A DNA stretch of 64,000 bases. Origin: Escherichia coli O127:H6 str. E2348/69 (GTDB lineage: Bacteria; Pseudomonadota; Gammaproteobacteria; Enterobacterales; Enterobacteriaceae). Made by a program: the position numbers. This document shows positions 43,701 to 46,700 of the stretch, piece after piece (the stretch's first letter is position 1; every line of letters starts with the position of its first letter). Where the stretch lies: NCBI RefSeq assembly GCF_000026545.1, contig NC_011601.1; one strand, written 5' to 3'.

Positions 43701-46700
43701 TGAGTTGAAAAAAGCGGGCGTTGATGTGCTGGGTATCAGCACCGATAAACCCGAAAAACTCTCCCGTTTTGCGGAAAAAGAGCTGCTTAACTTTACGCTC
43801 CTGTCTGATGAGGACCACCAGGTGTGCGAACAATTCGGCGTCTGGGGTGAAAAGTCCTTCATGGGCAAAACCTACGATGGTATTCATCGCATCAGCTTCC
43901 TGATTGACGCTGATGGCAAAATCGAACATGTCTTTGACGATTTCAAAACCAGCAATCACCACGACGTTGTGCTGAACTGGCTGAAAGAACACGCCTGATT
44001 ACTTTGCTCCATTCCGTGCTGGCTGCGCTTGCGGCCAGCACATCTCACATCTTCTCACTGCCCTGCAACACTCGTTTCAAATTTTTTCGCTGAAGGTCAG
44101 TCTTGCGCGATTTGCCCATCAGGCCAGGCGTGAATCACGGCTTTGATCAGCGTCGCCAATGGAATAGCGAAGAATACGCCCCAGAATCCCCACAAACCAC
44201 CGAAGATCACCACCGATAAAATAATCACCAGAGGATGCAGGTTAACCGCTTCGGAGAACAACACCGGTACTAACAGGTTGCCGTCCAGCGCCTGAATAAT
44301 CAGATACACCGCGAAACAGCTCCAGAATTCCGTGCCAGCACCAAACTGGAATAGCGCCACGCCAATCACCGGAATGGTCACCACAAATGCGCCAATGTAC
44401 GGAATAAGTACCGAGAAGCCGACCAGCACCGCCAGCAGCAGCGAATAGTTCAGCCCGAAGAGTAAGAACCCCAGCCAGGTGGCGATCCCTACCACGATCA
44501 TCTCCAGCACTTTGCCGCGGATATAGTTGGTGATTTGTTGATTCATCTCCTTCCACACCTGTCCTGCCAGTCCACGGTTGCGCGGCAGCACCCGGCGAAC
44601 GGCGTTCAGCATCTGCTCTTTGTCTTTCAGCAGGAAGAAGACCATCAATGGCACCAGCACCAGATAGACGGCAATGGTCAGCAAACCGACCAACGAGGCG
44701 AGGGAAATTTTCACCACCGAATCGCCCATGGTCAGCATCCGACTGCGCATATTTTCGGCCATTGCATCAATAATGCCCGCATCCATTAACGCCGGATAGC
44801 GGCGCGGCAACGTGGCGGCAAAGTCAGAAAGCTTATTGAGCATCCCCGGCATATCGCGGATTAAGTAGATGCCCTGCTGCCAGGCAATAGGCAGAACCAC
44901 GAACGCCATCAGTAGCAGGATGCCCACAAACAGGATCAGCACGATAGATGTCGCCCAAGGGCGGGAACAGCCAATAGACTGCAGGCGGACAGTCGGCCAT
45001 TCCAGTAAATAGGCCAGAACAATAGCCACCAGCAACGGAGCAAGCAGTCCACTAAAGAAAAAGATAATGCCAAATCCGGCAACTAAAATAACCAGCAAGG
45101 CAATCGCTTCCGGATCGCTAAAACGGCGGCGATACCATTGCATCAACATTTCGAGCATACAGACCTTCCCTGAACCTCAAGAGCGGGATTGCGATCCGCA
45201 ATTGTATCGAAATGTCACAAAAAAGACTTCGCTTTTTATGACGGATTCAGGAAACTGAAAAGTCATTTGAGTGGGCTAATCTTCGCCGTTACACTCAAAG
45301 GCGGCGCGGTGGGAACGATATTTCACAGTATCGGTCAAATGACTATCTCCAGAAATACAGGATAGAGGTTATGTTCAGGCAGTTGAAAAAAAACCTGGTT
45401 GCAACCCTCATTGCTGCTATGACCATTGGTCAGGTAGCCCCGGCGTTTGCCGACAGCGCAGACACCTTGCCGGATATGGGAACCTCCGCAGGAAGCACAC
45501 TTTCCATTGGTCAGGAAATGCAGATGGGCGACTATTATGTCCGCCAGTTACGCGGCAGCGCGCCGTTAATTAATGATCCGCTGTTAACGCAATACATTAA
45601 TTTGCTAGGAATGCGTCTGGTTTCGCATGCCAATTCGGTTAAGACACCGTTTCATTTCTTTCTGATCAACAACGATGAAATTAACGCCTTTGCTTTCTTT
45701 GGCGGCAACGTGGTGCTGCACTCTGCCCTGTTCCGTTATTCCGATAACGAAAGTCAACTGGCTTCAGTTATGGCGCACGAAATCTCCCACGTCACCCAAC
45801 GTCACCTGGCGCGAGCGATGGAAGATCAGCAGCGCAGCGCGCCGCTGACCTGGGTCGGCGCGTTAGGTTCTATTTTACTGGCGATGGCCAGTCCGCAGGC
45901 GGGGATGGCGGCGCTGACCGGTACACTGGCGGGAACGCGCCAGGGGATGATCAGTTTCACCCAGCAAAATGAACAGGAAGCGGACCGCATTGGTATTCAG
46001 GTGCTGCAACGCTCGGGATTCGATCCGCAGGCGATGCCGACCTTCCTCGAAAAATTACTCGATCAGGCGCGTTACTCTTCGCGCCCACCAGAAATTCTGC
46101 TCACTCACCCACTACCGGAAAGCCGTCTGGCTGATGCCCGTAACCGTGCCAATCAGATGCGCCCGATAGTGGTGCAATCGTCAGAAGATTTCTATCTGGC
46201 AAAAGTGCGCACACTGGGGATGTACAATTCAGGGCGTAACCAACTCACCAGTGATTTGCTGGATGAATGGGCGAAAGGAAACGTTCGTCAGCAACGAGCG
46301 GCGCAATATGGTCGTGCTTTACAGGCGATGGAAGCCAATAAATACGACGAGGCACGTAAAACGCTGCAACCGTTACTGGTGGCAGAACCTGGCAACGCAT
46401 GGTATCTCGATCTGGCTACCGATATTGATCTTGGGCAAAACAAAGCCAATGACGCTATCAATCGCCTGAAAAATGCCCGCGATTTGCGCACCAATCCGGT
46501 GTTGCAGCTCAACCTGGCGAACGCTTATCTGCAAGGGGGGCAACCACAGGAAGCGGCCAATATTCTGAATCGCTACACTTTTAACAATAAAGATGACAGC
46601 AACGGCTGGGATTTACTGGCACAGGCGGAAGCCGCACTAAATAACCGCGATCAGGAACTGGCTGCGCGAGCAGAAGGTTATGCGCTCGCCGGGCGACTCG

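What the first reader, a model, noticed from the sequence alone, without database searches (positions are those of the whole stretch)
43999..44096. bcp is followed directly by perM; the hyf (hydrogenase-4) operon and focB are absent
In K-12, as I recall, the roughly 13-kb hyfABCDEFGHIJR-focB cluster lies between bcp and perM. Here only ~100 bp with a hairpin separates them. This is either a lineage that never acquired hyf or a clean deletion; the junction shows no obvious scar or IS.
Basis: established knowledge. Interest (0 to 1): 0.3.

Follow-up and report, generated by a model that had tools for sequence, protein, structure and literature searches.

The report
Old, known hyf-operon gap in E. 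coli
This enteropathogenic E. coli (strain E2348/69) lacks the 13.7-kb hydrogenase-4 (hyf-focB) operon that K-12 carries between bcp and perM, which is a documented trait of its lineage; the 98-bp gap appears to keep a faint remnant of the operon's control region, so it looks like an old inherited deletion, not a site that was never occupied.

Summary
The window is E. coli E2348/69. bcp (43528-43998, +) and perM/yfgO (44097-45158, -) are separated by 98 bp. K-12 has the 13,751-bp hyfABCDEFGHIJR-focB segment there.

This is a lineage trait. 1126 of 5426 complete E. coli genomes carry the same junction allele, and the other 4299 carry hyf at this site and nowhere else. Phylogroup G (APEC O2-211) has an identical spacer. 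Phylogroup F (IAI39) has hyf. Absence of hyf from B2 strains, E2348/69 included, was published in 2009.

New detail on polarity: the spacer is probably not pristine. Positions 44045-44094 are homologous to the K-12 hyf upstream region (z=8.5), whose motif layout recurs at hyf loci in the same site in Citrobacter amalonaticus, a contig whose HyfA NCBI names E. fergusonii, and one other assembly. In K-12 the segment is flanked by an imperfect 11-bp direct repeat, GCTGAAcGTTA / GCTGAAgATTA. The window holds one copy.

E. albertii carries a collinear empty allele, so the deletion appears older than E. coli.

There is no IS, tRNA or integrase. Ordinary and already known; low interest.

The parts
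43528..43998 (+). bcp (thioredoxin-dependent thiol peroxidase), left flank of the junction
   Evidence: 156-aa ORF. Annotated bcp in E2348/69 and K-12. 0.2% nucleotide divergence from K-12.
43999..44096 (.). 98-bp bcp-perM spacer, the hyf-less junction allele
   Evidence: Identical (101/101, including the perM stop) in phylogroup G strain APEC O2-211. All 1126 hyf-less complete genomes match window 43960-44130 at 98.2% identity or more.
44016..44041 (+). Hairpin: 11-bp stem, 4-nt loop, no U-tract. Conserved just downstream of bcp in hyf-bearing K-12 as well. Probable bcp, and possibly bidirectional, terminator
   Evidence: The same sequence follows bcp in K-12 and IAI39. The terminator scan did not call it because there is no T-run. 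The terminator function is inferred.
44045..44094 (+). Probable relic of the hyf upstream regulatory region: right half of a CRP-like palindrome (TCACA), then 17 nt, then a degenerate CGACAC...TCGAA element, up to GCTGAA
   Evidence: 38/50 identical to K-12 L001 5015-5067 with one 3-bp gap; local score 22 against shuffles 9.0 +/- 1.5, z = 8.5. Motif order and spacing match the hyf-bearing loci L097, L098 and L099. Direct similarity to those loci without K-12 as bridge is weak.
44089..44099 (+). Single copy (GCTGAAGGTCA) of the short repeat that flanks hyf-focB in K-12. It overlaps the perM stop codon (TCA = TGA on the minus strand)
   Evidence: K-12 has GCTGAACGTTA at L001 5062-5072 and GCTGAAGATTA at 18813-18823, 13,751 bp apart: 6 bp exact, 9 of 11 matching. 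Random breakpoints give microhomology of 6 bp or more with P = 0.0015.
44097..45158 (-). perM / yfgO (AI-2E family transporter), right flank of the junction
   Evidence: 353-aa ORF. Annotated yfgO. 4.7% divergence from K-12, most of it in a patch at 44847-45097 that is unrelated to hyf status.

Best explanation
The bcp-perM junction of E2348/69 is an inherited, lineage-wide deletion allele of the hyf-focB locus.

Shown: the same junction sequence occurs in every hyf-less complete E. coli genome (about 21% of them), including a phylogroup G strain. All other genomes carry hyf at exactly this site. E. albertii and a divergent Escherichia lineage have collinear empty spacers.

Inferred: the Escherichia ancestor carried hyf between bcp and perM, as do today a contig whose HyfA NCBI names E. 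fergusonii, Citrobacter amalonaticus and other Enterobacteriaceae. A 13.75-kb deletion between imperfect 11-bp direct repeats (GCTGAA[C/G][G/A]TTA), by slippage or short-homology recombination, removed everything from 130 bp upstream of hyfA to the focB-perM terminator. One repeat copy and about 50 bp of the now functionless hyf upstream region remained. A second, roughly 20-bp deletion between TCAC(A)TTCTCG repeats removed half of the CRP-like palindrome.

Inferred: because the allele is shared with E. albertii while the fergusonii-named contig and most E. coli keep hyf, it predates E. coli. It reached or persisted in the B2+G ancestor either vertically or by homologous recombination in the conserved flanks.

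Consequence: the strain lacks hydrogenase-4 / formate hydrogenlyase-2 and the FocB formate channel. perM has also lost the strong terminator it shares with focB in K-12, so the convergent bcp and perM genes are separated only by the bcp hairpin.
For: Identity and distribution. The window is 100% identical to E2348/69. 1126 of 5426 genomes have bcp-perM contiguous and all share the junction allele at 98.2% or more. hyf is found in the complementary 4299 genomes, always on the chromosome. The G strain O2-211 has an identical spacer. The F strain IAI39 has hyf.

Deletion anatomy. The repeats are 13,751 bp apart and a simulated deletion reproduces the junction layout. Microhomology of 6 bp or more has P = 0.0015.

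Relic. Window 44045-44094 against the K-12 hyf upstream region gives z = 8.5. That K-12 region shares TGTGA-N6-TCACA, 17 nt, CGACAC..GCCGAA, GAACGTTAATGACCATCA and the sigma-54-type TGGCATCCTTTATGCA with hyf loci at the same site in L097, L098 and L099. The K-12 versus L097 comparison left of the junction gives z = 5.3.

Order of divergence. The relic is closer to K-12 (76% identity) than K-12 is to the other hyf-bearing alleles by eye in the alignments, which is not expected if empty sites predated the insertion (those K-12 identities were not computed).

hyf in the genus. The fergusonii-named contig L099 has hyf at this locus with a right-end terminator homologous to that of K-12.

Age. The E. 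albertii spacer is collinear, lacks the same roughly 20 bp and shares degenerate states such as CACTCGTTTCAA. Its 15.8% divergence from E2348/69 is spread evenly along the spacer (7 of the first 45 positions, 9 of the last 56), with no sign of a recently imported stretch.

No mobile-element features were found.
Against: The relic is only about 50 bp. On its own it is not significantly similar to the non-K-12 hyf upstream regions (z = 0.8 and -0.8). In one search, with K-12 left out of the profile, the E. albertii relic reaches only the 99.75th percentile of shuffles and the E2348/69 relic does not stand out.

Direct bcp-perM adjacency is the deep ancestral state across Enterobacterales and Vibrionaceae. 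Three Escherichia lineages have empty sites, so a never-occupied reading is parsimonious if hyf spread by recombination.

The hyf genes are more diverged between genera than their flanks (about 75% against 84-87% nucleotide identity; 70-79% against 88% for the fergusonii-named contig). That is compatible with horizontal movement of hyf.

The CRP and activator-site assignments rest on sequence resemblance and my recollection of the hyf literature. They were not tested here. The labels 'E. fergusonii' and 'Salmonella enterica' are the depositors' and were not verified.
Confidence: 0.7

Rival explanations
1. The site was never occupied. B2+G, E. albertii and the L004 lineage keep the ancestral empty bcp-perM spacer. 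hyf entered the other E. coli phylogroups, and the fergusonii-named lineage, by homologous recombination from hyf-bearing Enterobacteriaceae. The similarity between the spacer and the hyf upstream DNA is pre-insertion sequence.
For: bcp-perM adjacency is ancestral in 55 of 80 loci from Yersinia to Vibrio. E. albertii and L004 are empty. In the hyf-bearing allele the spacer beyond the hairpin is about 29% diverged from the empty allele, while bcp is 0.2% diverged; that looks like a recombination breakpoint near 44041. hyf is more diverged than its flanks between genera. The site takes different cargo in other genera. Some published trees place B2 as the first branch of E. coli (Touchon 2009).
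Against: The relic carries the motif order and spacing of a regulatory region that travels with hyf in four lineages. It is closer to the K-12 version than K-12 is to the other hyf-bearing alleles, which is the wrong order for a pre-insertion lineage. Phylogroup F has hyf at 2.07% divergence from K-12, typical of vertical descent. F is described in the literature as grouping with G and B2, so a gain would need extra transfers. A 6-bp exact, 9-of-11 repeat at both ends is what a deletion leaves, and a homologous import needs no such repeat.
Confidence: 0.2
2. A recent clean deletion within E. coli: the B2 (or B2+G) ancestor deleted hyf from the ordinary E. coli hyf-bearing allele by recombination between the two GCTGAA repeats, independently of E. 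albertii.
For: The repeats exist in K-12 and IAI39. All other E. coli phylogroups checked have hyf. Published accounts describe a loss.
Against: Such a deletion would leave the K-12/IAI39-type left spacer, including the CRP-like palindrome and the K-12-type substitutions. Beyond the hairpin the observed spacer differs from it by 16 mismatches plus 25 gap columns, and it shares the same small deletion and derived bases with E. albertii.
Confidence: 0.06
3. Excision of a mobile genomic island, an IS-mediated deletion, or an assembly error.
For: Some individual genomes do show IS-associated partial hyf deletions, for example hit H80 with IS1 and 20% coverage.
Against: There is no integrase, tRNA, IS or att-like structure in or next to the K-12 segment or the window junction. 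hyf GC content (53.8%) is close to its flanks. The junction is identical in 1126 independently assembled complete genomes.
Confidence: 0.02

Closest known systems
Published absence of hyfABCDEFGHIJ from E. coli phylogroup B2 (Touchon et al. 2009, PMC2617782, Table 5; Touchon et al. 2020, PMC7314097; Gonzalez-Alba et al. 2019, PMC6896753)
   Same: It is the same polymorphism. hyf is listed among activities specifically absent in B2 strains, with E2348/69 explicitly considered. B2 is negatively associated with the Hyf system. The 2019 paper calls it a loss.
   Different: Those papers report gene presence or absence only. Added here: the base-level junction, the flanking repeat, the probable promoter relic, phylogroup G sharing the identical allele, and phylogroup F (IAI39) still having hyf. 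The last point contradicts the 2019 statement that the whole F+G+B2 lineage lost it.
K-12 hyfABCDEFGHIJR-focB locus (hydrogenase-4 / formate hydrogenlyase-2; b2481-b2492)
   Same: This is the DNA missing from the window. Flanking genes and their order are otherwise identical.
   Different: K-12 has 253 bp of bcp-hyfA spacer with a sigma-54-type promoter motif and a strong focB/perM terminator (-19.1 kcal/mol, z = -5.35). The window keeps only the first ~42 bp unchanged plus a degenerate ~50 bp.
Short-homology (illegitimate, slippage-type) deletions between direct repeats of a few bp
   Same: The intact allele has the repeat at both ends and the deleted allele has one copy. No recombinase or mobile element is involved.
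   Different: The event was not observed. The repeat is short (6 bp exact, 9 of 11), and the allele is old enough that the original junction sequence has drifted.
Chromosomal integration hotspots between conserved core genes in Enterobacteriaceae (as described for E. coli by Touchon et al. 2009)
   Same: The bcp-perM interval holds different metabolic cassettes in different genera, and the flanks are conserved enough for homologous exchange.
   Different: Within E. coli only two states were seen at this site (hyf or the deletion allele) among 5425 genomes, apart from occasional IS-associated partial hyf deletions, so it is not an active hotspot in this species.

Membership tests
hyf-less bcp-perM junction allele of E. 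coli B2/G | bcp and perM convergent and adjacent, with no hyf or focB between them | tested here: met
   98-bp spacer. K-12 has 13.75 kb more.
hyf-less bcp-perM junction allele of E. coli B2/G | Same junction sequence as other hyf-less E. coli | tested here: met
   1126 genomes match at 98.2% or more across 43960-44130. O2-211 (G) is 101/101 identical.
hyf-less bcp-perM junction allele of E. coli B2/G | Strain belongs to phylogroup B2 or G | not tested
   The window is E2348/69, which Touchon 2009 calls phylogroup B2. No phylogroup typing was done here.
hyf-less bcp-perM junction allele of E. coli B2/G | No hyf genes elsewhere in the genome | tested here: inconclusive
   Only the counts are complementary: 4299 genomes with hyf, 1126 contiguous, 5425 in total. 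The E2348/69 chromosome itself was not searched separately.
Short-homology deletion product | Direct repeat at both ends of the segment in the intact allele, one copy in the deleted allele | tested here: met
   GCTGAACGTTA and GCTGAAGATTA in K-12; GCTGAAGGTCA once in the window. P = 0.0015 for 6 bp or more by chance.
Short-homology deletion product | Sequence of the lost element retained next to the junction | tested here: inconclusive
   The 50-bp relic matches the K-12 hyf upstream region at z = 8.5. Its link to hyf as such rests on transitive homology through K-12.
Mobile genomic island excision | Integrase, tRNA or att target, or atypical composition | tested here: not met
   None found. 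hyf GC is 53.8% against 51.8-52.9% in the flanks.
IS-mediated deletion | IS copy or IS end at the junction | tested here: not met
   No transposase ORF and no IS-like repeat in 43900-44200.
Rho-independent terminator (the spacer hairpin) | GC-rich stem-loop | tested here: met
   11-bp stem with 4-nt loop at 44016-44041.
Rho-independent terminator (the spacer hairpin) | U-tract immediately 3' of the stem | tested here: not met
   The stem is followed by AUCUCACAUCUUCUC on the plus strand and GGAAUGGAGC on the minus strand. The consensus scan did not call it.

The most novel reading that the evidence does not exclude
The presence or absence of hyf at bcp-perM is a polymorphism older than the species E. 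coli. One deletion allele, recognisable by its junction and its decayed promoter relic, is shared by E. albertii, a cryptic Escherichia lineage and E. coli B2+G, while the fergusonii-named lineage and the remaining E. coli keep deeply diverged hyf operons. That pattern would require repeated homologous exchange of a 13.7-kb presence/absence allele across species boundaries, or its long-term maintenance, possibly tied to host-adapted versus environmental lifestyles.
Probability: 0.35. Interest if true: 0.4.

Novelty: already known. Interest (0 to 1): 0.15.

Why it matters
It matters little for this window. The absence of hydrogenase-4 and FocB from B2 strains is a textbook-level accessory-genome difference. 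K-12 hyf is, by my recollection of the literature, poorly expressed in the laboratory.

The modest added value is threefold. It corrects the published phylogroup assignment: the trait belongs to B2+G, and F keeps hyf. It gives a base-level diagnostic junction that could serve as a simple lineage marker. It also suggests that an apparently clean empty site hides an old deletion scar, which is a caution for gain-versus-loss calls made from gene presence tables alone.

Tried and rejected
1. Flank divergence as a recombination signal. perM looked unusually diverged from K-12 (4.7%, against 0.2% for bcp). The 53-kb baseline is 2.46% with sd 1.19% per kb. The perM peak is a 250-bp patch (44847-45097, 11%) that sets E2348/69 apart from K-12, IAI39 and also the hyf-less G strain, so it is unrelated to hyf. 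Rejected as evidence either way.

2. Composition of hyf. GC is 53.8% and GC3 0.55-0.68, not anomalous.

3. Looking for non-coli Escherichia HyfR at 85-97% identity. The only such hits were two assemblies whose genes across the locus are broken into many short fragments. Cluster membership listed only E. coli names.

4. Direct similarity of the relic to Citrobacter and L097 upstream DNA, and an nhmmer profile without K-12: weak or not significant. The relic argument therefore stays transitive.

5. Reading Skibinski et al. 2002 and Lindenstrauss & Pinske 2019 for the hyf promoter map and distribution: neither paper is held.

6. Rfam, tRNA and promoter/terminator scans of the junction found nothing relevant.

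Full report
What is there. 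In the window, bcp (43528-43998, plus strand) and perM/yfgO (44097-45158, minus strand) converge on a 98-bp spacer, 43999-44096. The 1631 bp covering both genes are 100% identical to the chromosome of enteropathogenic E. coli E2348/69. RefSeq annotates that region as dapA, gcvR, bcp, yfgO, bepA, arsC, hda. In K-12 MG1655 the annotated order is bcp (b2480), hyfABCDEFGHIJR (b2481-b2491), focB (b2492), yfgO (b2493). Alignment shows that homology to K-12 runs from bcp into the spacer and resumes at 44089, eight bases before the perM stop codon.

How common it is. Of 5426 complete E. coli genomes, 5425 contain bcp and perM. In 1126 they are contiguous as here, and in the rest they lie apart. The 13,744-bp K-12 hyf-focB segment is found in 4299 genomes, near full length in 4292, always on the chromosome and never on a plasmid. 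Since 1126 + 4299 = 5425, the two states are complementary, and hyf does not seem to sit elsewhere in hyf-less genomes. I did not search the E2348/69 genome separately. A 171-bp probe across the junction matches all 1126 hyf-less genomes at 98.2% identity or more, so E. coli has a single hyf-less allele.

Which lineages carry it. I checked two reference strains directly. IAI39 (phylogroup F by my own knowledge; Touchon 2009 describes it as a group D strain close to B2) has the full hyf locus at this site, with hyfR a pseudogene. APEC O2-211, listed as phylogroup G / ST117 in PMC8281228, has the empty site with a spacer identical to E2348/69 at 101 of 101 positions.

What is already published. 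Touchon et al. 2009 list hyfABCDEFGHIJ among activities specifically absent in group B2 strains, with E2348/69 considered explicitly. Touchon et al. 2020 report B2 as negatively associated with the Hyf system. Gonzalez-Alba et al. 2019 state that the F+G+B2 lineage lost hyf. My check shows that this last statement is too broad, because F (IAI39) retains hyf. The finding as stated is already known.

Anatomy of the junction. The first 42 bp of the spacer, including an 11-bp-stem hairpin at 44016-44041, are identical in K-12, where they lie upstream of hyfA. The hairpin belongs to bcp and is not a scar. It has no U-tract on either strand, and the terminator scan did not call it. In K-12 the missing segment is bounded by GCTGAACGTTA (L001 5062-5072) and GCTGAAGATTA (L001 18813-18823), which are 13,751 bp apart. 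The window has a single GCTGAAGGTCA at 44089-44099, and its last three bases are the perM stop codon. With random breakpoints in the same sequence, microhomology of 6 bp or more occurs with P = 0.0015. The strong terminator that K-12 perM shares with focB (-19.1 kcal/mol, z = -5.35) lies almost entirely inside the missing DNA. There is no IS, transposase, tRNA, integrase or Rfam family at or near the junction. The composition of hyf is unremarkable.

Gain or loss: the deep view. I fetched 80 perM loci from one genome per species and mapped K-12 proteins onto them. In 55 loci, bcp lies directly beside perM; these range from Enterobacter, Yersinia, Serratia, Proteus and Pantoea to Vibrio and Photobacterium. 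At great depth, then, the empty arrangement is ancestral. E. albertii and a divergent Escherichia assembly (L004, deposited as E. coli, about 4-10% diverged in most genes of this region) are also empty. Several genera carry other cargo at this site: an amidohydrolase cluster in Citrobacter werkmanii and youngae; a CdaR-type regulator, GntP-family permease and glycerate kinase cassette; a dihydroxyacetone-kinase cluster; and a macro-domain gene. The interval therefore accepts insertions.

Gain or loss: hyf at the same site elsewhere. hyf occupies exactly this interval in Enterobacter sp. Bisph1 and a soil MAG, in Citrobacter amalonaticus, and in an assembly deposited as Salmonella enterica. It also does so in a contig whose HyfA NCBI names E. 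fergusonii. That last locus is reduced to hyfABC, a truncated hyfD, and hyfGHIJR, with no hyfE, hyfF or focB.

Gain or loss: the relic. The bcp-hyfA spacers of K-12, the fergusonii-named contig, C. amalonaticus and the Salmonella-labelled assembly share an ordered set of motifs:
- a TGTGA-N6-TCACA palindrome, which matches the CRP consensus;
- after 16-17 nt, CGACAC followed by G(C/T)CGAA;
- GAACGTTAATGACCATCA;
- a sigma-54-type TGGCATCCTTTATGCA just before hyfA.

In K-12 the deletion junction falls inside this conserved region, between the CGACAC element and GAACGTTAATG. The window spacer at 44045-44094 aligns to the K-12 part to the left of that point: 38 of 50 identical, z = 8.5 against shuffles. 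It keeps the TCAC-17nt-C(A/G)ACAC spacing. It lacks about 20 bp, which in K-12 lie between two TCAC(A)TTCTCG repeats and form the left half of the palindrome. The empty E. albertii spacer is collinear with it, lacks the same 20 bp, and shares degenerate bases such as CACTCGTTTCAA where hyf-bearing alleles have CAC..GTG(T/C)CGAA. By eye in the alignments, the relic is closer to K-12 than K-12 is to the other hyf-bearing alleles; those K-12 identities were not computed. That is the wrong order if the empty alleles had split off before hyf arrived.

My reading of the relic. I take the spacer to be a deletion derivative of an Escherichia hyf-bearing allele. The deletion was produced once, between the short repeats, and it is old. 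The 15.8% divergence between the E2348/69 and E. albertii spacers is spread evenly along their length.

Caveats on the relic. It is short. Compared directly with the non-K-12 upstream regions it is not significant (z = 0.8 and -0.8). With an nhmmer profile built without K-12, the E. albertii relic reaches only the 99.75th percentile of shuffles, and the E2348/69 relic does not stand out. The CRP and activator-site labels are my inference from sequence and memory; the relevant papers were not available.

What this excludes. A recent deletion from the ordinary E. coli hyf-bearing allele would have left the K-12/IAI39-type spacer. Beyond the hairpin, the observed spacer instead differs from that type by 16 mismatches and 25 gap columns. 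Excision of a mobile island and IS-mediated loss have no support. The junction is identical in 1126 independent complete assemblies, so an assembly error is excluded.

What stays open. The deletion allele (E. albertii, L004, B2+G) and the hyf-bearing alleles (the fergusonii-named lineage and the other E. coli) are distributed incongruently with the usual species tree. In that tree E. fergusonii is the closest named relative of E. coli (abstract), and F groups with G and B2. Either the deletion allele or hyf has therefore moved between lineages by homologous recombination in the conserved flanks, or both were maintained for a long time. hyf in K-12 and IAI39 differs by 2.07%, evenly along the operon. 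That is comparable to the 2.5% E2348/69-versus-K-12 baseline and consistent with long residence in E. coli. Flank divergence gives no usable signal: the apparent excess in perM is a patch at 44847-45097 that also separates E2348/69 from the hyf-less G strain.

Function. E2348/69 lacks the hydrogenase-4 / formate hydrogenlyase-2 genes and the FocB channel. By established knowledge, the hyc-encoded hydrogenase-3 system carries formate hydrogenlyase activity in E. coli and K-12 hyf is weakly expressed, so the phenotype is expected to be mild. This was not tested here. Transcription of the convergent bcp and perM genes is separated only by the hairpin and the decayed relic.

Verdict. The feature is ordinary and already published as a B2 trait. 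The new details are phylogroup G sharing the allele, phylogroup F keeping hyf, the flanking repeat, the probable promoter relic, and the allele being shared with E. albertii. These tilt the 'never acquired or deleted' question towards an old deletion with about 0.7 confidence. Interest is low.

Noticed in passing
L005-L007, L016, L020, L029, L048, L050 (bcp-perM interval of other genera): The same interval holds unrelated cargo in other Enterobacterales. Citrobacter werkmanii, C. youngae and Citrobacter sp. FP75 have about 2.6 kb with an amidohydrolase. L016 and Pluralibacter (L020) have a CdaR-type regulator, a GntP-family permease and a glycerate kinase, plus an ABC transporter in L020. L029 has a dihydroxyacetone-kinase cluster. 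Providencia (L048) has a macro-domain gene. The site is an insertion hotspot at family scale.
   Followed up: partly
L099 (contig whose HyfA NCBI names E. fergusonii), 9285-20582: hyf sits at the same bcp-perM site but reduced: hyfABC, a 137-aa hyfD fragment, then hyfGHIJR directly before perM. There is no hyfE, hyfF or focB. Protein identity to K-12 is only 66-94%, although the flanks are Escherichia-like. This looks like a natural hyc-like trimmed hydrogenase-4.
   Followed up: partly
L088/L098 (Citrobacter amalonaticus), L095/L097 (assembly GCA_025013005.1 labelled Salmonella enterica), L015, L018: Full hyf-focB operons lie at the identical bcp-perM site in other genera, about 75% identical to K-12 in nucleotides (measured for L097 and L098) while the flanks are 84-87%. 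The Salmonella label was not verified.
   Followed up: partly
L085 33672-35684 (E. coli IAI39): hyfR is annotated as a pseudogene with an internal stop in IAI39, so this hyf-bearing strain may not be able to activate the operon through HyfR.
   Followed up: no
Literature against L085 and L093: Gonzalez-Alba et al. 2019 state that the F+G+B2 lineage lost hyf, but the phylogroup F strain IAI39 carries it. In the strains checked, only B2 and G lack it.
   Followed up: yes
window 44847-45097 (inside perM): A 250-bp patch is about 11% diverged from K-12, IAI39 and also the hyf-less G strain O2-211, while neighbouring stretches differ by 1-3%. It looks like a small recombination import specific to the E2348/69 sublineage.
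   Followed up: partly
window about 1528-1535 (eutB/eutA junction): The K-12 cryptic prophage CPZ-55 (6.8 kb inside the eut operon) is absent. eutB and eutA are contiguous here.
   Followed up: no
window 2763-4314: About 1.5 kb is absent from K-12 at the eutA/eutH boundary. It contains a 457-aa transposase (2775-4148, minus strand) with Tnp_DNA_bind and DDE_Tnp_1 domains, apparently an IS inserted in the eut operon region.
   Followed up: partly
window 25010-30569 (between narQ and acrD): A 5.5-kb insert is absent from K-12. It carries a 1057-aa autotransporter (ESPR signal, pertactin/autochaperone, beta-domain; 25124-28297, minus strand) and an adjacent 411-aa TibC-like heptosyltransferase (28301-29536, minus strand). 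This is a glycosylated-adhesin pair of the AIDA-I/TibA kind.
   Followed up: partly
window 60249-64000: Collinearity with K-12 stops after yfgI. The DNA that follows encodes phage lysis genes (DUF2514 Rz-like protein, GH19 endolysin, holin). It is the end of a prophage on the guaA side, as in IAI39 (L084).
   Followed up: partly
E. coli genome hit H80 (NZ_CM128587.1) and the six other genomes with under 80% hyf coverage: A few hyf-bearing genomes have partial hyf loci associated with IS1. These are independent, scarred deletions, unlike the B2/G allele.
   Followed up: no
L093 17292-17917 (APEC O2-211): A vapBC toxin-antitoxin pair sits between ypfJ and purC in the G strain. It is annotated in neither K-12 nor IAI39 between those genes.
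   Followed up: no
One match to the bcp/perM query lies on a record classed as a plasmid. It was not examined.
   Followed up: no
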